IMG/VR virus record: IMGVR_UViG_2737471827_000003
Location: 1-20,580 of that record
DNA from: a virus
Taxonomy: Duplodnaviria > Heunggongvirae > Uroviricota > Caudoviricetes
Direction: 5' to 3' (one strand)
Length of the DNA: 20,580 nt
Shown here piece after piece: positions 7,434 through 19,119 of the stretch. The notes below the pieces were generated by a model. It ran no database searches. It saw nothing but the letters and a program-made list of their open reading frames with translations, and was not told where the DNA came from. The position numbers were made by a program, and so were the translations under genes. The stretch's first letter is position 1. Every line of letters begins with the position of its first letter.

Positions 7434-7916
7434 ATGTCTGGACCCCCGAAAACCCCGCCACGCCTGCATTTGATACGAGGCAACCCCTCAAAGCGCCCCG
7501 TTAAAGACTCAAAAAAAACCGCTAAAAAGGATGAAAAAGGTCTCCCTAAAATTCCGCAACATTTAGGGGCGCAGGGGAAGTACTGGTTCAGGCGAATGGC
7601 AGAAGAACTGAATGCGGAAGGGATCATTTCTCAGCTTGATGCGCGTGCACTCGAGTTACTGGTGGAAGCCTACACCGAATACCGGCATCACTGCGAAACC
7701 CTCGATGTTGAGGGATATACCTACCGCACGGAAACGCAGAACGGTGATGTGCTGATTAAGGCACACCCCGCGGCGGCAATGAAAGCGGATGCCTGGAAGA
7801 GGATCCGGGCGATGCTTGCAGAGTTTGGCATGTCACCGGCAAGCCGGGCTAAAGTAAATATCGCCGGACCGGATGATGTCGATCCGCTGGCGGAGCTTTT
7901 AAAAGCGAGAGACTGA
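7434..7916 (+). CDS. Terminase small subunit (P27-family-like)
   Basis: 160 aa with a basic N-terminus, directly upstream of and overlapping the large terminase. Confidence 0.8.
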   Translation: MSGPPKTPPRLHLIRGNPSKRPVKDSKKTAKKDEKGLPKIPQHLGAQGKYWFRRMAEELNAEGIISQLDARALELLVEAYTEYRHHCETLDVEGYTYRTETQNGDVLIKAHPAAAMKADAWKRIRAMLAEFGMSPASRAKVNIAGPDDVDPLAELLKARD

Positions 7917-14400: not shown

Positions 14401-14403
14401 TGA

Positions 14404-14424
14404 CCCGCTGCTGGCGGGTTTTTT
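14404..14424 (+). terminator. Rho-independent terminator/attenuator upstream of the major tail gene
   Basis: Stem CCCGC, loop TGCTG, stem GCGGG, then T6. Confidence 0.65.
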
Positions 14425-14441
14425 CTTTTCAGGAGATGTAT

Positions 14442-15158
14442 ATGCCATCTAATTATGAACGATCCCAGTTGACGCAGGTGATGATTTCATCCGCTCCCGT
14501 AAGGCCTGAAACCGTGGAGAAAGCGGAATACCTGCGTCTGGACTGTACCATCAAGGAAGTCCAGTTTACTGCGGGTCAGAAACAGGATGTTGACGTGACA
14601 ACGCTTTGCTCCACAGAACAGGAGAATATCAACGGCCTTGGATCTCCATCCGAGATTTCAATGTCGGGTAACTTCTTTATGAATCCTGCACAGAACGCCC
14701 TGCGTGATGCGTATGATAATGACAGTGTGTATGCATTTAAGGTGCAGTTTCCGTCCGGACGTGGGTTTAAGTTTATGGCAGAAGTACGTCAGCATACCTG
14801 GTCTTCCGGCACTAATGGCGTGGTGGCTGCGACTTTTTCCCTGCGTCTGAAAGGGAAGCCTTCGCTGTATGTGGTACCACTGGATTTTGTGCGTAACCTT
14901 CCGGAAGCGCATGTGGTGACGACAGGATCATTACTGACGCTGTCTGTTGCGGTCAGTGGAGGTACTCCGCCTTACAGCTATACCTGGTATAAAGACGGTA
15001 AGGCTGTGGCTGACCAGACTACAGACACGTTCAATAAAGCCGGTGCGCAGACGGAGGATACTGGCGAGTACACTTGTACGGTGATGGATTCGGCGAATCA
15101 GCCTCTGAGTGTCACATCACTGGCGTGTCAGGTGATGGTGAATGCGGTAACCGGATAA
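14442..15158 (+). CDS. Major tail protein (lambda V-like) with C-terminal Ig-like domain
   Basis: AGGAG at 14431-14435 then ATG at 14442; C-terminal region ...YSYTWYKDGKAVADQ...TEDTGEYTCTVMD... has the Ig I-set-like Y-x-C signature. Confidence 0.8.
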   Translation: MPSNYERSQLTQVMISSAPVRPETVEKAEYLRLDCTIKEVQFTAGQKQDVDVTTLCSTEQENINGLGSPSEISMSGNFFMNPAQNALRDAYDNDSVYAFKVQFPSGRGFKFMAEVRQHTWSSGTNGVVAATFSLRLKGKPSLYVVPLDFVRNLPEAHVVTTGSLLTLSVAVSGGTPPYSYTWYKDGKAVADQTTDTFNKAGAQTEDTGEYTCTVMDSANQPLSVTSLACQVMVNAVTG

Positions 15159-15167
15159 GGAAATGTC

Positions 15168-15539
15168 ATGGAAAAAGATTTAAAAACGCTGGCGCTGTCA
15201 ACGATGGCGGGGTTTCGTCATAAGACAGTGGTGGTACCGGAATGGGACGGCGCTACGGTAGTGCTGAGGGAGCCGTCAACTGAAGCCTGGCTACGCTGGC
15301 AGGAGATAGTCAGACAGGAAAAGGGGGAAACGCAGTTGTCCGTTTCGGTACGGGCCCGCCGGGATCTGGAAGCCGATGTTGAGTTGTTCATTGATGTTTT
15401 GTGCGATACCGGGATGAAAAAGGTATTTTCTGCGGGTGATCGGGAACAGGTACTGGCAGTGTATGGTCCTGTGCATACGCGACTATTGCGGCAGGCGCTG
15501 GAGCTGGTTACTGATGCCGGTGAGGTTAAAAAAAAATAG
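15168..15539 (+). CDS. Tail assembly chaperone (lambda G-like)
   Basis: 123 aa ending GEVKKK-stop on an A9 tract; followed by a T-like ORF in the -1 frame. Confidence 0.8.
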   Translation: MEKDLKTLALSTMAGFRHKTVVVPEWDGATVVLREPSTEAWLRWQEIVRQEKGETQLSVSVRARRDLEADVELFIDVLCDTGMKKVFSAGDREQVLAVYGPVHTRLLRQALELVTDAGEVKKK

Positions 15540-15841
15540 CCATGCCGGGGATGCGTTTTCTGATGATGCTGGCGCTCAGGATGGGGCGCACATTGTCAGA
15601 GTTACGCCGGGAAATGTCCGCATCAGAAATCATGATGTGGGCAGAATTTGACAGGTTCAGCCCGCTGGGAGACGAACGGGCTGATATCCGGGCTGCCCAG
15701 ATTGTTTCAGCTGTTTACGGTGCGCAGGGGGTCAAAGTGCCACTGAATGATGCGCTTCTTCAGTGGGAGAAGGAGCAGACAGAAGGCACCTCAGATCCAT
15801 TTGCCGGACTGGAAAATGCGCTTTTAACCGTATCTCAGTGA
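15168..15841 (+). CDS. Tail assembly chaperone fusion (GT-like), produced by a programmed -1 ribosomal frameshift on the A9 slippery tract (15528-15536)
   Basis: The -1 frame (15542..15841 in the ORF track) is open upstream to 15530, inside the A-run. A slip after the codon at 15531-15533 reads KKIAMPGMRF... in continuity. Confidence 0.7.
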
Positions 15842-15852
15842 GTCGACATAAC

Positions 15853-15872
15853 CGCTTCGGCGGTTTTTTTTT
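15853..15872 (+). terminator. Weak terminator/attenuator-like hairpin between the T-like ORF and the tape measure gene
   Basis: ACCGC, loop TTCG, GCGGT, followed by T9. Confidence 0.4.
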
Positions 15873-15888
15873 CGTCCGGAGAATGAGA

Positions 15889-18800
15889 ATGGCGACATTA
15901 CGTGAACTGATTATTAAAATTTCGGCAAATTCCCGGTCATTCCAGTCAGAGATCGCCCGGGCTTCACGTATGGGGCAGGATTACTACCGCACCATGCAGA
16001 ACGGAGGCCGACAGTCTGCTGCTGCATCCCGTGAAATGCGGCGGGCGCTGGCAGAAGTGACGGATCAGATAAATACGGCTAAATCTTCGGCGCTGAGTAT
16101 GGCGGGAGCATTTGCCGGGGTTTTTGCCACCGGGCATCTGATTTCCCTTGCCGATGAGTGGAATTCAGTCAATGCCCGTCTGAAACAGGCGACACAATCC
16201 AGTGATGATTTTCAGGCATCACAGCGTGAATTAATGGCAATCAGCCAGAGAACGGGGACGGCGTTTTCTGATAACGCCAGCCTTTTTGCCCGCTCTGCAG
16301 CTTCCATGCGGGAGTATGGCTACAGTTCTGAGGAGGTCCTGAAAGTCACTGAGGCGATTTCCACGGGGCTGAAATTATCCGGTGCCAGTACAGCAGAAGC
16401 CAGTTCGGTGATCACACAGTTCAGCCAGGCACTGGCGCAGGGAGTACTGCGTGGTGAAGAGTTTAACGCTGTGAATGAGAACGGCGATCGCGTTATTCGT
16501 GCGCTGGCTGCGGGAATGGGTGTTGCCCGTAAGGATCTGAAGGCCATGGCGGATGACGGCAAACTGACTGCTGATAAGGTCGTTCCTGCACTGATTAGCC
16601 AGCTTGGGGCGTTGCGTGATGAATATGCAGCAATGCCTGATACGGTTTCATCCTCTGCAACCAAAGTTGAAAACGCCTTTATGGCCTGGGTTGGTGGTGC
16701 GAACGAGGCAGGCGGTGTAACGAAGACGCTCTCCGGGGTGCTGAATGGTGTTGCAGGCAATATTGATACTGTGGCAACTGCCGCCGGTGCTCTGGTTGCC
16801 GTCGGGGTAGCCCGATATTTTGGCAATATGGCGTCTTCTGCTGTCTCTGCAACAGCCGGGTTAATTACTGCGGCCAGAAACGAAGTGTCTCTTGCTGAAG
16901 CGCAACTCCGGGGGACACAGATAGCAACCGCCAGGGCGCGTGCGGCGGTATATCGTGCGCAACAGGCGGTTGTGGCTGCCAGAGGAACAGAACAACAGGT
17001 TGCAGCGGAAGCTAAACTGGCAGGCGCTCAGGCATCACTTACCCGTAATATTGCGGCCAGAACAGCAGCACAGACAACGCTGAATACTGTCACGTCAGTG
17101 GGGAGTCGTCTGTTAAGTGGAGCACTGGGACTGGTTGGGGGTGTGCCGGGGCTTGTCATGCTGGGGGCTGCGGCCTGGTACACGATGTATCAGAATCAGG
17201 AGCAGGCCAGAGAGTCTGCACGCCAGTATGCCGCAACAATCGACGAAATTCGCCAGAAAACGTCGGCAATGTCGCTTCCTGAAGCGTCAGATAATGAAGA
17301 AAAGACGCGGCAGGCACTGGAGGAACAGAACAGGTTAATTGACGGACAGATAAGCAGGGTTAAAGCCTTACAGGAAAAAATTGCTGGCTATCAGTATGTG
17401 CTGGCAAATCCTGGCTGGACAACCGATAACGGTTTTATGATTAACCATCTGACGTCGGTAAAAACTGTTACAGAGGAGCTTGCGGAAGCAACAAATCAAC
17501 TGGCAGTTGAACAGTCCCGTCTCACACAAATGCAGGGCAAAGCACAATCCATTCAGGATGTACTTGCCGGGCTGGAAGAGCGACGGGTGGCGTTGATCCG
17601 CCAACAGGCGGCAGAACAAAACAAAGCGTATCAGTCCCTGTTGATCATGAACGGTCAGTATACTGAGTTTAACCGTCTTCTTGGTCTGGGGAATGAATTA
17701 CTTCAGCAGCGACAGGGGCTGGTGAATGTACCGTTACGTCTGCCACAGGCAACCCTGGATGATAAACAGCAGGACGCACTGAAAAAAAGCCAGCAGGCGC
17801 TGGAGTTGTCCCGTCTCAAAGGCGAGGCCAGAGAACGCGTGCGTCTCGGATATGCTGCTGATGATCTTGGCTTTGTCGGCGACAAATATCAGACTGCACG
17901 CCAGGAATTCATCAGTACAGGGATGGAGACCTGGCGCAATAATGAGGCGAATAAGCCGAAGAGAAAAGGGCCAAAATCGGAAGCTGAAAAAGCAGAAGAT
18001 GTTTACAACAGGCTGATTAAACAGCAGAAAGAACAGATTGCACTGGCAGGACAGAATACCGAACTGGCGAAAATGAAATACCAGGTCAGCCAGGGTGAGC
18101 TGACCACCCTTTCGTCTGCACAGAAGCAACTTTTGCTACAGAATGCGGCGCTGATTGACCAGAAAAAGATTCGTGAGCAGCTTGCTGCGTATGAGAGCAG
18201 TCTGGCGGACAGTAATGCCAGTGCCCGGGCATCTGACGAAGCGCAGTTGTTGGGATATGGTGAAGGCTCACGGATGCGTGAACGACTCCAGGAAATGTGG
18301 AGTATCCGGCAGGCGTTTGAGCAGAAAAATAACGAGCTGCTGAGACAGTATCAGGCCGGAGAAATTGAAGAAGCCCTGTGGAAACAGGAGAAAGAACTGA
18401 ATAAAAAATATCTGGAAGAGCGTCTCAGCGATCAGCAGAATTATTATGCAAAGGCCGATGCTTTACGTAATAACTGGAATGCCGGACTCCAGGAGGGACT
18501 GACCAACTGGGCAGACAGTGCCACCGATTATGCTTCACAGGCGGCAGATGCTGTCGTTTCCACGATGGACGGGCTGGTATCAAATATTTCCGATGCACTG
18601 GCCGGGAATGTTGTGGACTGGAGGAACTGGGGGAGTTCAGTTCTCCGGGAAGTTTCAAAAATTCTGATGAATGCAGCCATTGTTAACGGACTGAAATCAC
18701 TCTCCGGTGCCGGAGGGTGGCTTGGTACGGTCGGCGGATGGATTTCGGGGGCAGTGGCAAACGCAAAAGGTGGTGTTTACACATCGGCAAATCTGAGTGC

Positions 18801-19119
18801 TTACAGTAACACTATTGTGGATACACCGACGTATTTTGCTTTTGCGAAAGGTGCCGGGTTGATGGGCGAGGCCGGGCCTGAAGCAATCATGCCACTGACA
18901 CGGGCAGCGGACGGCTCTCTTGGGGTCAGGGCCATTGGAAATGTGAATGGTGGCGGTGGATTTGTTTATTCTCCCGTGTATCACATCAGCATTCAGAATC
19001 AAGGGAGCAATGGCGAGATAGATGCGCGCTCAGCCAGGGGACTGGTGGATCTGATCGACAGCAGGGTTGTGTCAATTATGCAGTCATCGCGTCGGGATGG
19101 AGGATTGTACAGTGCCTGA
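15889..19119 (+). CDS. Tail tape measure protein (lambda H-like)
   Basis: About 1077 aa from ATG 15889 (GGAG at 15878-15881); long Ala/Gln-rich coiled-coil protein; C-terminus resembles lambda gpH. Confidence 0.85.
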   Translation: MATLRELIIKISANSRSFQSEIARASRMGQDYYRTMQNGGRQSAAASREMRRALAEVTDQINTAKSSALSMAGAFAGVFATGHLISLADEWNSVNARLKQATQSSDDFQASQRELMAISQRTGTAFSDNASLFARSAASMREYGYSSEEVLKVTEAISTGLKLSGASTAEASSVITQFSQALAQGVLRGEEFNAVNENGDRVIRALAAGMGVARKDLKAMADDGKLTADKVVPALISQLGALRDEYAAMPDTVSSSATKVENAFMAWVGGANEAGGVTKTLSGVLNGVAGNIDTVATAAGALVAVGVARYFGNMASSAVSATAGLITAARNEVSLAEAQLRGTQIATARARAAVYRAQQAVVAARGTEQQVAAEAKLAGAQASLTRNIAARTAAQTTLNTVTSVGSRLLSGALGLVGGVPGLVMLGAAAWYTMYQNQEQARESARQYAATIDEIRQKTSAMSLPEASDNEEKTRQALEEQNRLIDGQISRVKALQEKIAGYQYVLANPGWTTDNGFMINHLTSVKTVTEELAEATNQLAVEQSRLTQMQGKAQSIQDVLAGLEERRVALIRQQAAEQNKAYQSLLIMNGQYTEFNRLLGLGNELLQQRQGLVNVPLRLPQATLDDKQQDALKKSQQALELSRLKGEARERVRLGYAADDLGFVGDKYQTARQEFISTGMETWRNNEANKPKRKGPKSEAEKAEDVYNRLIKQQKEQIALAGQNTELAKMKYQVSQGELTTLSSAQKQLLLQNAALIDQKKIREQLAAYESSLADSNASARASDEAQLLGYGEGSRMRERLQEMWSIRQAFEQKNNELLRQYQAGEIEEALWKQEKELNKKYLEERLSDQQNYYAKADALRNNWNAGLQEGLTNWADSATDYASQAADAVVSTMDGLVSNISDALAGNVVDWRNWGSSVLREVSKILMNAAIVNGLKSLSGAGGWLGTVGGWISGAVANAKGGVYTSANLSAYSNTIVDTPTYFAFAKGAGLMGEAGPEAIMPLTRAADGSLGVRAIGNVNGGGGFVYSPVYHISIQNQGSNGEIDARSARGLVDLIDSRVVSIMQSSRRDGGLYSA

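What the first reader, a model, noticed from the sequence alone, without database searches (positions are those of the whole stretch)
15519..15545. A9 slippery tract at the end of the G-like gene that would fuse it to the T-like ORF by a -1 frameshift
The G-like ORF ends ...GTT AAA AAA AAA TAG, and the -1 frame is open from within the A-run into the 99-aa T-like ORF. This reproduces the conserved tail-assembly-chaperone G/GT frameshift described for lambda and many other tailed phages, here on a homopolymeric A tract rather than lambda's G GGA AAG.
Basis: partly seen in the sequence, partly recalled or inferred. Interest (0 to 1): 0.5.

Follow-up and report, generated by a model that had tools for sequence, protein, structure and literature searches.

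The report
Phage tail chaperone G/GT frameshift site
This is the well-known programmed −1 frameshift that lets an HK97-like E. coli prophage make a short tail-assembly chaperone and a longer fused form from two overlapping reading frames; it is ordinary, except that its slippery site is nine uninterrupted A's where relatives have A_AAA_AAG.

Summary
The G-like gene (15168..15539, 123 aa, Pfam Phage_TAC_1) ends GTT AAA AAA AAA TAG. The T-like ORF (15542..15841, Pfam Phage_tail_T) lies in the −1 frame. That frame is closed by TAA at 15527-29 and the 0 frame by TAG at 15537-39. The only seven bases where a shift can join the two are therefore 15530-15536, an in-register A_AAA_AAA heptamer.

The conceptual fusion is 224 aa. 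It aligns without gaps, end to end, with HK97 Gp14 (62% identity), which GenBank annotates as "translated due to a -1 frameshift". The junction falls at the same residue. It also matches a 224-position PHROG profile of fused proteins in one stretch.

The other ten lineages examined keep a shift site at the same spot, all ending in AAG. More than 220 IMG/VR contigs of two of those lineages carry A_AAA_AAG.

Published reporter assays on this HK97-like chaperone cluster gave 6-7% frameshifting. A_AAA_AAA is a measured −1 motif in E. coli.

The one unusual point is the AAG→AAA change. It creates an A9 run, on which RNA polymerase slippage could give the same product. No conserved stimulatory structure was found.

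Verdict: a new member of a known kind, of low interest.

The parts
14442..15158 (+). Major tail tube protein gene with a C-terminal Ig-like domain (context; the presumed partner of the T domain). The ORF is open from 14400; 14442 is the start used by PGAP in the 98.7%-identical E. coli record.
   Evidence: Pfam Ig_3, Phage_TTP_11 and Phage_tail_3, and phrog_158 major tail protein E 1.5e-98. PGAP start.
15168..15539 (+). G-like tail assembly chaperone gene (123 aa), 0 frame, ending AAA AAA AAA TAG.
   Evidence: PF06222 Phage_TAC_1, E 8.3e-53, full length 1-123. phrog_344 tail assembly chaperone. 61% identical to HK97 gp13.
15527..15529 (+). TAA stop in the -1 frame. It is the upstream limit of the region in which a shift can be productive.
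   Evidence: The same TAA precedes the heptamer in the sibling E. coli lineage.
15528..15536 (+). A9 homopolymer run. It is long enough for RNA polymerase slippage according to the literature.
   Evidence: Relatives have A8G here (117 of 120 contigs). Atkins 2016 states that slippage is efficient in vivo at runs of 9 A or T.
15530..15536 (+). Slippery heptamer A_AAA_AAA, in register with the 0 frame (P-site AAA 15531-33, A-site AAA 15534-36). It is the proposed site of tandem tRNA-Lys -1 slippage.
   Evidence: Direct reading. It is the only heptamer at a gene end that leads into a Pfam-matched -1 ORF. A_AAA_AAA is a measured E. coli -1 motif: 0.41% alone and 24.8% with the IS3 pseudoknot (Sharma 2014 Table S3).
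15537..15539 (+). 0-frame TAG stop immediately 3' of the heptamer. It terminates G and is the downstream limit of the shift region.
   Evidence: A stop directly follows the shift site in 6 of the 11 lineages.
15536..15841 (+). T segment read in the -1 frame after the shift: Ile-Ala, then the 99-aa T ORF, ending at TGA 15839-41. Fusion CDS = join(15168..15536,15536..15841), 224 aa.
   Evidence: PF06223 Phage_tail_T, E 3.9e-20. The fusion matches phrog_14766 at 2-221 of 224 positions in one stretch, E 4e-93. Gap-free 224/224 alignment with HK97 Gp14.
15553..15606 (+). Predicted RNA hairpin inside the T coding region. Listed only as a candidate; it is not supported as a frameshift stimulator.
   Evidence: It starts 16 nt after the heptamer. 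The 84-nt fold is not unusual (z -1.26). Across 11 relatives only 66.5% of cells pair and the middle of the long helix is broken.
15889..19119 (+). Tape measure protein gene (1076 aa), the client of the G/GT chaperones (context).
   Evidence: Pfam Phage_HK97_TLTM E 8e-91, TMP_3 and Tape_meas_lam_C. phrog_339.

Best explanation
This is the G/GT tail-assembly-chaperone recoding site of an HK97-like E. coli prophage.

Most ribosomes translate the G-like gene to TAG at 15537 and release a 123-aa chaperone. A minority, probably a few percent, slip back one base on A_AAA_AAA (15530-15536). The two tRNA-Lys on AAA-AAA re-pair with AAA-AAA in the -1 frame. Alternatively, the P-site tRNA-Lys slips while the stop codon waits in the A site. 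The ribosome then reads ATA GCC ATG ... to TGA at 15839-41 and makes a 224-aa G-T fusion.

By analogy with lambda, the G part of both proteins coats the tape-measure protein (15889..19119). The T part of the rare fusion recruits the major tail protein (14442..15158), so the fixed G:GT ratio sets up tail-tube polymerisation. Neither protein ends up in the virion.

What is shown here: the frames, the stop codons, the heptamer register, the homology of both halves and of the fusion, and conservation of the site in relatives. What is inferred: that the shift happens on this sequence, its efficiency, and the protein interactions.

Because the run is nine uninterrupted A's, insertion of one A by RNA polymerase probably contributes some of the same product. 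The confidence of 0.8 is for a GT fusion made by a -1 change of frame at this run. Within it, my split is about 0.55 mainly ribosomal and 0.25 mainly transcriptional.
For: - Frames and stops: -1 TAA at 15527-29 and 0-frame TAG at 15537-39 leave exactly the heptamer as the productive region.
- Family membership: G is PF06222 (E 8e-53) and T is PF06223 (E 4e-20). They lie between the major tail and tape-measure genes in a complete HK97-type head/tail module.
- The fusion is 224 aa. It aligns 224/224 with HK97 Gp14 with 0 gaps and 62% identity, and the junction is at the same residue, 123|124. GenBank AF069529 annotates Gp14 as 'translated due to a -1 frameshift'. Bcep176 69/69' is annotated likewise.
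- The fusion hits the 224-position profile phrog_14766 in a single stretch at 312 bits. The two halves alone score 154 and 145 bits.
- The shift site is conserved in place across lineages down to about 31% identity. It is A_AAA_AAG (E. coli sibling lineage, BP-4795, Pm34, Yersinia, Bcep176, phi1026b), G_GGA_AAG (mEp390), G_GAA_AAG (HK97, ENT39118) or A_AAG with only a 7-nt overlap (Klebsiella phage).
- T is always in the -1 frame.
- The residues encoded between the shift site and the first Met of the T frame are conserved (KK[V/I]AxPG..FLMxLALR). Several relatives have no ATG before FLM, so that stretch must be reached from G.
- None of 228 IMG/VR contigs has a run length that puts G and T in one frame.
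- Literature. The HK97-like tail-chaperone cluster gave 6% and 7% in reporter assays (Antonov 2013, PMC3711429). Cluster A_AAA_AAG_25 (ECs1801, tail assembly chaperone) is marked [true] (Sharma 2014 Table S4). AAAAAAA gave 0.405%, 0.819% and 24.8% against AAAAAAG 0.291%, 4.26% and 39.0%, with no stimulator, IS911 stimulators and the IS3 pseudoknot respectively (Table S3). The lambda G:GT ratio is about 30:1 and the roles of G and T are described in Atkins 2016 (PMC5009743).
Against: - Nothing here shows that the fusion is made from this sequence.
- The window's heptamer ends in AAA. Every other lineage examined ends in AAG, the codon on which E. coli's single tRNA-Lys is most shift-prone. The tetramer hierarchy is A_AA.G >> A_AA.A, and with stimulators AAAAAAA is 1.6- to 5-fold weaker than AAAAAAG.
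- No stimulator was found. The SD-like GAGG (15522-25) lies only 4 nt upstream, whereas Sharma 2014 searched for SD-like stimulators 6-17 nt upstream of the motif. It is also absent from BP-4795, Pm34 and Yersinia.
- The downstream hairpin starts 16 nt away and is not conserved.
- The window lineage, unlike most relatives, has an ATG (15542) two bases after the TAG, so some independent T by reinitiation cannot be excluded.
- An A9 run also allows RNA polymerase slippage, which sequence alone cannot separate from ribosomal slippage.
Confidence: 0.8

Rival explanations
1. The fusion is made mainly by transcriptional slippage. RNA polymerase stutters on the T9 template of the A9 run. Transcripts with one extra A (A10) are then translated normally into the same 224-aa GT protein. 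Ribosomal slippage is minor.
For: - The run is nine uninterrupted A's.
[quoted passage not shown] It also notes that Thermus dnaX uses such a run where E. coli dnaX uses A_AAA_AAG. Antonov 2013 lists An with n>7 as sites of transcriptional realignment.
- An A10 message encodes exactly ...KKKIAMPG..., 224 aa.
- The AAG->AAA change that creates the run weakens the ribosomal motif in stimulated contexts but lengthens the homopolymer from 8 to 9.
Against: - Over 220 related contigs keep the interrupted A8G and none has A9. The family as a whole therefore does not depend on a 9-base run.
- Several members (HK97, mEp390, ENT39118, the Klebsiella phage) have no long A-run at all.
- A_AAA_AAA is by itself a working ribosomal motif.
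- Slippage would also make A8 and A11 messages that encode 160/161-aa +1-frame by-products. These are wasteful and possibly harmful.
Confidence: 0.25
2. There is no recoding in this lineage. T is translated on its own, by termination-reinitiation at ATG 15542 (two bases after TAG) or from ATG 15551 or 15563, and acts as a separate protein.
For: - The arrangement TAG CC ATG is typical of translational coupling.
- RefSeq/PGAP annotates 'phage tail assembly protein T' as a separate CDS starting at the equivalent of 15563, in the 98.7%-identical genome and in about 900 others.
- The ATG at 15542 is present in the window lineage and in the Klebsiella phage.
Against: - There is no Shine-Dalgarno sequence at a usable distance. 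GAGG ends 16 nt before ATG 15542.
- In the sibling lineage that codon is CTT. In BP-4795, Pm34, HK97, mEp390 and ENT39118 there is no ATG before the FLM motif, yet the upstream T-frame residues are conserved.
- The slippery site is conserved in register in every lineage.
- Fused products are annotated or demonstrated for homologues.
- In lambda the T domain is made only as part of gpGT (Atkins 2016).
Confidence: 0.06
3. The A9 run is a homopolymer error or a recent indel. The real gene is either a single in-frame G-T ORF or a decaying pseudogene in a dead prophage.
For: - Homopolymer length errors do occur at this site. 3 of 120 sibling-lineage contigs and 1 of 106 BP-4795-lineage contigs have a run one base shorter.
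- The lineage is rare: 1 of 5426 complete E. coli genomes and 0 metagenome contigs.
Against: - A9 is found in four separate assemblies with two haplotypes.
- Its frame arrangement is identical to that of all relatives.
- No contig anywhere has an in-frame fusion.
- All surrounding structural genes are intact with full-length Pfam matches.
Confidence: 0.02

Closest known systems
Phage HK97 gp13 / Gp14 (tail assembly chaperone and its -1 frameshift extension; GenBank AF069529)
   Same: - Direct homologue: G is 61% identical and the fusion 62% identical over 224/224 residues with no gap.
- Same junction residue, the same total length of 224 aa and the same gene order (major tail, G, T, tape measure).
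- Same Pfam families, PF06222 and PF06223.
   Different: - HK97 shifts on G_GAA_AAG (effectively A_AAG) five codons before the G stop, within a 49-nt overlap.
- The window shifts on A_AAA_AAA, butted against the stop, within a 7-nt productive region.
- HK97 carries a moron gene (15) between T and the tape-measure gene. The window does not.
Lambda G/GT programmed -1 frameshift (Levin, Hendrix & Casjens 1993; Xu, Hendrix & Duda 2004, 2013, 2014)
   Same: - Same position in the tail operon and the same -1 direction, with a long fusion made at a low level.
- Same T family (PF06223, 'Minor tail protein T').
- No requirement for a strong downstream structure (my recollection of Levin 1993; general account in Atkins 2016).
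   Different: - Lambda uses G_GGA_AAG. This appears as 'G_GGA_AAG_4, gpG, [true]' in Sharma 2014 Table S4.
- As far as I recall, lambda gpG belongs to a different TAC sequence family from PF06222. This was not tested here.
- The window's site is homopolymeric.
A_AAA_AAG tail-chaperone sites of E. coli prophages (ECs1801 cluster of Sharma 2014; HK97-like TAC cluster of Antonov 2013; BP-4795 and Stx phages; the sibling lineage present in about 900 E. coli genomes)
   Same: - Same protein family (64-76% identity) and the same codon position.
- Same TAA (-1 frame) ... TAG (0 frame) bracketing in the sibling lineage.
- Experimentally measured at 6-7% in reporter constructs.
   Different: One synonymous change, AAG->AAA, in the last Lys codon. 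It turns A8G into A9. It removes the weakly paired AAG codon and creates a run long enough for polymerase slippage.
dnaX: E. coli A_AAA_AAG ribosomal frameshift versus Thermus thermophilus A9 transcriptional slippage (Larsen et al. 2000)
   Same: The same pair of alternative sequences, A_AAA_AAG and A9, occurs at homologous positions of homologous genes. That raises the same question of which machine slips.
   Different: - dnaX frameshifting truncates the protein and runs at about 50%, with an upstream SD and a downstream hairpin.
- Here the shift extends the protein and no stimulator was found. The expected level is a few percent.
- E. coli has a single tRNA-Lys, so the rationale given for Thermus (a second tRNA that pairs tightly with AAG) does not apply.

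Membership tests
Tailed-phage tail assembly chaperone G/GT -1 frameshift (Xu, Hendrix & Duda 2004) | Two ORFs lying between the major tail protein gene and the tape measure protein gene. | tested here: met
   Major tail 14442..15158, G 15168..15539, T 15542..15841, TMP 15889..19119. Pfam assignments.
Tailed-phage tail assembly chaperone G/GT -1 frameshift (Xu, Hendrix & Duda 2004) | [quoted passage not shown] | tested here: met
   Frame arithmetic and translations. The -1 frame is open from 15530. T is in the -1 frame in all 86 sequences compared (the window plus 85 related loci) and in the phage lineages.
Tailed-phage tail assembly chaperone G/GT -1 frameshift (Xu, Hendrix & Duda 2004) | A slippery sequence in the correct register within the region open in both frames. 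| tested here: met
   A_AAA_AAA at 15530-15536 fills the whole 7-nt productive region. It is a measured E. coli -1 motif.
Tailed-phage tail assembly chaperone G/GT -1 frameshift (Xu, Hendrix & Duda 2004) | The second ORF has no translation start of its own. | tested here: inconclusive
   The window has ATG 15542 two bases after TAG, but no SD within range (GAGG ends 16 nt upstream). The sibling lineage has CTT there, and five lineages have no ATG before the conserved FLM motif.
Tailed-phage tail assembly chaperone G/GT -1 frameshift (Xu, Hendrix & Duda 2004) | The arrangement and shift site are conserved among homologues. | tested here: met
   Eleven lineages, down to about 31% identity, keep a Lys-codon shift site at the same place. 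222 of 226 IMG/VR contigs of two lineages carry A_AAA_AAG.
Tailed-phage tail assembly chaperone G/GT -1 frameshift (Xu, Hendrix & Duda 2004) | The fusion protein is actually made, at a low fixed ratio, and is required for tail assembly. | not testable with these tools
   Only indirect evidence: 6-7% in reporters for two genes of the HK97-like cluster (Antonov 2013), '[true]' for ECs1801, and the HK97 Gp14 annotation.
Pfam PF06222 Phage_TAC_1 / PF06223 Phage_tail_T (HK97 gp13-Gp14 type) | Sequence match above the curated gathering score for both halves, with a collinear fusion. | tested here: met
   178 bits against a cut-off of 25, and 72.5 bits against 25.9. Fusion against HK97 Gp14: 224/224 aligned with 0 gaps. 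phrog_14766 matched at 2-221 of 224.
dnaX-type stimulated -1 frameshift (A_AAA_AAG + upstream SD + downstream hairpin) | The heptamer A_AAA_AAG. | tested here: not met
   The window has A_AAA_AAA. Relatives do have A_AAA_AAG.
dnaX-type stimulated -1 frameshift (A_AAA_AAG + upstream SD + downstream hairpin) | An SD-like element 6-17 nt upstream of the motif. | tested here: not met
   GAGG at 15522-25 is 4 nt from the heptamer. It is not conserved in BP-4795, Pm34 or Yersinia. The 6-17 nt range is from Sharma 2014.
dnaX-type stimulated -1 frameshift (A_AAA_AAG + upstream SD + downstream hairpin) | A conserved stable structure a few nucleotides downstream. | tested here: not met
   The nearest hairpin starts 16 nt downstream. 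The 84-nt fold has z -1.26. Only 66.5% of cells pair across relatives and the helix centre is broken. There is no Rfam frameshift-element hit.
Programmed transcriptional slippage on homopolymer runs (Thermus dnaX, Shigella mxiE/spa13, IS elements) | An uninterrupted run of about 9 or more A or T at the frame junction. | tested here: met
   A9 at 15528-15536.
Programmed transcriptional slippage on homopolymer runs (Thermus dnaX, Shigella mxiE/spa13, IS elements) | Insertion or deletion of run bases yields the functional product. | tested here: met
   A10 gives the 224-aa GT and A7 a 223-aa GT. A8 and A11 give 160/161-aa +1-frame products.
Programmed transcriptional slippage on homopolymer runs (Thermus dnaX, Shigella mxiE/spa13, IS elements) | The run length is conserved among homologues. 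| tested here: not met
   Only the window lineage has A9. Relatives have A8G, A6G or no run.
Programmed transcriptional slippage on homopolymer runs (Thermus dnaX, Shigella mxiE/spa13, IS elements) | A heterogeneous mRNA population at the run. | not testable with these tools
   Needs cDNA sequencing.

The most novel reading that the evidence does not exclude
In this rare prophage lineage the synonymous AAG->AAA change has moved part or most of GT production from the ribosome to RNA polymerase. An interrupted A8G ribosomal slip site, kept in hundreds of relatives, has become an uninterrupted A9 tract. Transcripts with one extra A would then supply the fusion, together with a 160/161-aa +1-frame by-product. 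That would be a natural, within-family switch between translational and transcriptional recoding in a phage tail gene, parallel to E. coli versus Thermus dnaX but within a single host that has one tRNA-Lys.
Probability: 0.25. Interest if true: 0.45.

Novelty: new member of a known kind. Interest (0 to 1): 0.2.

Why it matters
The practical value is in annotation. RefSeq/PGAP records this locus, and about 900 sibling loci in complete E. coli genomes, as two separate genes, with a truncated 'tail assembly protein T' starting at an internal ATG. The correct product is join(15168..15536,15536..15841), a 224-aa GT fusion.

Biologically the site adds nothing new about tail assembly. It does offer a clean natural pair, A8G against A9, with otherwise near-identical T sequence and 76%-identical G. 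That pair could be used to measure how much ribosomal and transcriptional slippage each contribute at a phage G/GT site in E. coli, and how much change in the G:GT ratio a phage tolerates.

Tried and rejected
- Downstream stimulatory structure. A hairpin at 15553-15606 is predicted. It starts 16 nt after the heptamer and the 84-nt fold is not unusual (z -1.26). Across 11 relatives only 66.5% of cells pair. The apparent covariation is confined to the outer three pairs, while the helix centre is broken in most relatives. The conserved inner GCGCUC/GGGCGC stem is explained by the conserved peptide A-L-R-M-G-R. Its distance to the shift site also differs between lineages. Rejected as a stimulator. 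The 161-nt region does fold unusually well (z -5.3); I did not explain this.
- Upstream SD-like GAGG(T) at 15522-26. It is too close (4 nt) and is not conserved. Rejected.
- Rfam scan of 15350-15950. No frameshift element was found, only sub-threshold hits to isrK and SNORA74.
- NCBIfam scan with the fusion protein: no family matched.
- Metagenome scan for the window-lineage junction with any run length: 0 hits. This gave no information on length polymorphism in its own lineage.
- Genome-contig scan with G: only two Yersinia loci, because the peptide words were too specific. They were still useful as a 52%-identity outgroup.
- Supplement of Antonov 2013, searched for the identities of the two tested chaperone genes: not in the files held.
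- Whether the run could be a sequencing artefact or an in-frame fusion: rejected.
Full report
**1. The observation**

The window reads ...GGT GAG GTT AAA AAA AAA TAG CC ATG CCG GGG... from 15519.

- The 0-frame ORF 15168..15539 encodes 123 aa ending ...DAGEVKKK*.
- The A-run is exactly nine bases, 15528-15536.
- In the -1 frame there is a TAA at 15527-29. After it the frame stays open: AAA AAA ATA GCC ATG ... to TGA at 15839-41.
- The 99-aa ORF 15542..15841 is in that frame.

A productive -1 change of frame can therefore happen only between 15530 and 15536. Those seven bases are A_AAA_AAA, in the X_XXY_YYZ register of the 0 frame. The only correction is that the fusion is 224 aa (25.2 kDa, against 13.9 kDa for G alone), not about 225.

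A9 runs as such are only mildly enriched: 2 observed against 0.41 expected. The arrangement is not something chance would give. Of the 15 in-register heptamers in the 14 structural genes, only this one and one at the TerS/TerL gene overlap lead into a long -1 ORF.

**2. What the genes are**

- The upstream ORF is a full-length Phage_TAC_1 tail assembly chaperone (PF06222, E 8e-53).
- The downstream ORF is Phage_tail_T (PF06223, E 4e-20).
- They lie between a major tail protein with an Ig-like C-terminal domain and a 1076-aa tape measure protein.
- The rest of the window is an HK97-type head module (small and large terminase, portal, S78 protease, HK97-fold capsid, connector proteins) followed by lambda-type tail genes M and L.
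- The nearest complete genome is an E. coli chromosome at 98.7% identity. A sibling lineage at about 88% nucleotide identity is present in about 900 of 5426 complete E. coli genomes.

**3. Evidence that the two ORFs are joined by a -1 shift**

(a) HK97 gp13 is 61% identical to the window's G. The HK97 GenBank record annotates Gp14 as a two-piece CDS "translated due to a -1 frameshift". Burkholderia phage Bcep176 annotates 69/69' in the same way.

(b) The window's conceptual fusion and HK97 Gp14 are both 224 aa. They align over all 224 residues with no gap (62% identity), and the junction is at the same residue: KKK|IAMPG against REK|VSTPG.

(c) PHROG family 14766 is a 224-position profile of fused proteins. 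G alone matches positions 2-121 and T alone 127-221. The fusion matches 2-221 in one stretch at 312 bits.

(d) I compared the junction in eleven lineages. In every one T is in the -1 frame and a Lys-codon shift site sits at the same place:

| Lineage | Shift site |
|---|---|
| E. coli sibling lineage, BP-4795, Proteus Pm34, Yersinia | A_AAA_AAG followed directly by a stop |
| Bcep176, phi1026b | A_AAA_AAG, with the G stop further downstream |
| mEp390 | G_GGA_AAG (lambda's heptamer) |
| HK97, Cronobacter ENT39118 | G_GAA_AAG |
| Klebsiella phage | bare A_AAG, inside a 7-nt overlap |

(e) The T-frame residues encoded between the shift site and the first Met are conserved (KK[V/I]AxPG...FLMxLALR[M/L]GRT). 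Five lineages have no ATG before FLM. That segment can therefore only be translated by ribosomes arriving from G.

(f) Among 228 IMG/VR contigs of three lineages, none has a run length that fuses G and T in frame. The counts were 222 A_AAA_AAG, 2 A9 and 4 with the run one base shorter.

(g) Literature:
- Antonov et al. 2013 found a 41-gene "phage tail assembly chaperone" cluster similar to HK97. They measured 6% and 7% frameshifting for two members in reporter constructs (PMC3711429).
- Sharma et al. 2014 list cluster A_AAA_AAG_25 (ECs1801, tail assembly chaperone) and G_GGA_AAG_4 (gpG) as true cases (PMC4066793, Table S4).
- Atkins et al. 2016 summarise the lambda mechanism. G and GT are made at about 30:1. 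G binds the tape measure protein, and the T domain binds the major tail protein. Neither is in the virion (PMC5009743).

**4. What is particular to this window**

The last Lys codon is AAA, not AAG.

- All ten other lineages end the site in AAG.
- In the two lineages that could be sampled deeply, 222 of 226 contigs have A_AAA_AAG and none has AAA.
- The A9 form occurs only in the window, in one E. coli genome of 5426, and in two IMG/VR contigs. These carry two haplotypes, so the run is real and heritable but rare and derived.

For the ribosome, A_AAA_AAA is a genuine E. coli motif:
- Frameshifting was 0.405% with no stimulator, 0.819% with the IS911 stimulators and 24.8% with the IS3 pseudoknot. 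A_AAA_AAG gave 0.291%, 4.26% and 39.0% (Sharma 2014, Table S3).
- A_AAA_AAA is used by IS600.
- Together with A_AAA_AAG it makes up 72% of the heptamers in IS1/IS3 elements.

So the change need not abolish ribosomal shifting, though it should lower it wherever a stimulator acts.

The change also lengthens the homopolymer from 8 to 9. That is the length at which bacterial RNA polymerase slippage is reported to be efficient in vivo, and it is the length used by Thermus dnaX in place of E. coli's A_AAA_AAG. An A10 transcript encodes exactly the same 224-aa protein. A8 and A11 transcripts would give 160/161-aa +1-frame products. Sequence cannot tell the two routes apart.

**5. Stimulators**

None was established.
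- The SD-like GAGG lies 4 nt upstream of the heptamer, outside the 6-17 nt range that Sharma 2014 searched for SD-like stimulators. It is missing in several relatives.
- A predicted hairpin at 15553-15606 begins 16 nt downstream. The 84-nt fold is unremarkable (z -1.26).
- On an 11-lineage alignment only 66.5% of cells pair, and the middle of the long helix is broken in most lineages.
- Its conserved inner stem coincides with the conserved peptide ALRMGR.
- Rfam gives no frameshift element.

This fits lambda, where, as I recall from Levin et al. 1993, the heptamer alone is sufficient. A 0-frame stop directly 3' of the site is present in 6 of 11 lineages. It could help by slowing A-site decoding, but that is inference.

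**6. Rivals**

- Independent initiation of T (TAG CC ATG) is possible in this lineage. It lacks an SD and is contradicted by the relatives.
- A sequencing artefact or an in-frame fusion is excluded by four concordant assemblies and the absence of any in-frame relative.
- Transcriptional slippage is the only serious alternative, and it changes the machine, not the product.

**7. Verdict**

This is a homologue of the HK97 gp13/Gp14 tail-chaperone frameshift. It belongs to a family in which the shift has been annotated, catalogued and measured.

- Novelty: a new member of a known kind. The A9 variant of the site is a minor twist.
- Interest is low, about 0.2.
- The locus is mis-annotated in RefSeq as two separate genes.

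Noticed in passing
window 15850-15872: An intrinsic-terminator-like hairpin (AACCGC-TTCG-GCGGTT) followed by T9 lies between the T stop (15841) and the tape-measure start (15889), inside the late tail operon. HK97 has an annotated putative terminator at the same place before gene H, there following moron gene 15. The window has the terminator but no moron.
   Followed up: partly
window 15786-15870: A sub-threshold Rfam hit to isrK (RF01394, an Hfq-binding sRNA): 22.5 bits against a gathering score of 50, E 0.011, full model length. It covers the 3' end of T plus the terminator. It is probably driven by the terminator alone, but a 3'-end-derived sRNA was not excluded.
   Followed up: no
window 14402-14430: A second terminator-like hairpin with a T-run lies between the stop of the gp17-like tail completion gene (14400) and the probable major-tail start at 14442. 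This again mirrors a putative terminator annotated in HK97 between genes 11 and 12. It implies that the 14400 ATG listed for the 252-aa ORF is not the real start.
   Followed up: partly
window 7511-7517: Another in-register A_AAA_AAA heptamer (part of an A8 run) lies in the small terminase gene (7434..7916). The -1 frame stops after two codons, so a shift would only truncate the protein. It is probably just a Lys-rich N-terminal region.
   Followed up: partly
window 7898-7916: T_TTA_AAA lies in register six codons before the small-terminase stop, and its -1 frame is the large-terminase frame (589 codons). The two genes overlap by one base. Translational coupling is the ordinary explanation. 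A TerS-TerL fusion by frameshift was not examined.
   Followed up: no
L101, L114, L157 (sibling lineage) and one contig of the BP-4795 lineage (L216 onward): 4 of 226 IMG/VR contigs have the A-run one base shorter (A7G or A5G). That puts T in the +1 frame. These are either homopolymer sequencing errors or inactivated prophages.
   Followed up: partly
window 14442-15841 compared with L003: Mosaic pattern. Relative to the common E. coli sibling lineage, the T part is 91-98% identical, G only 76% and the major tail protein 65%, although T is the domain thought to bind the major tail protein.
   Followed up: partly
window 15500-15660: The 161-nt stretch around the shift site folds much better than shuffled sequence (-65.7 kcal/mol, z -5.3, 0 of 200 shuffles). 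The fold has three hairpins, one of which holds the A-run in its loop (15517-15548). Only the middle hairpin was tested for conservation, and it failed.
   Followed up: partly
window 15436-15651: The +1 frame is open for 38 codons past the A-run. A one-base deletion or a two-base insertion in the run, in DNA or RNA, would give a 160/161-aa G variant with an unrelated tail.
   Followed up: yes
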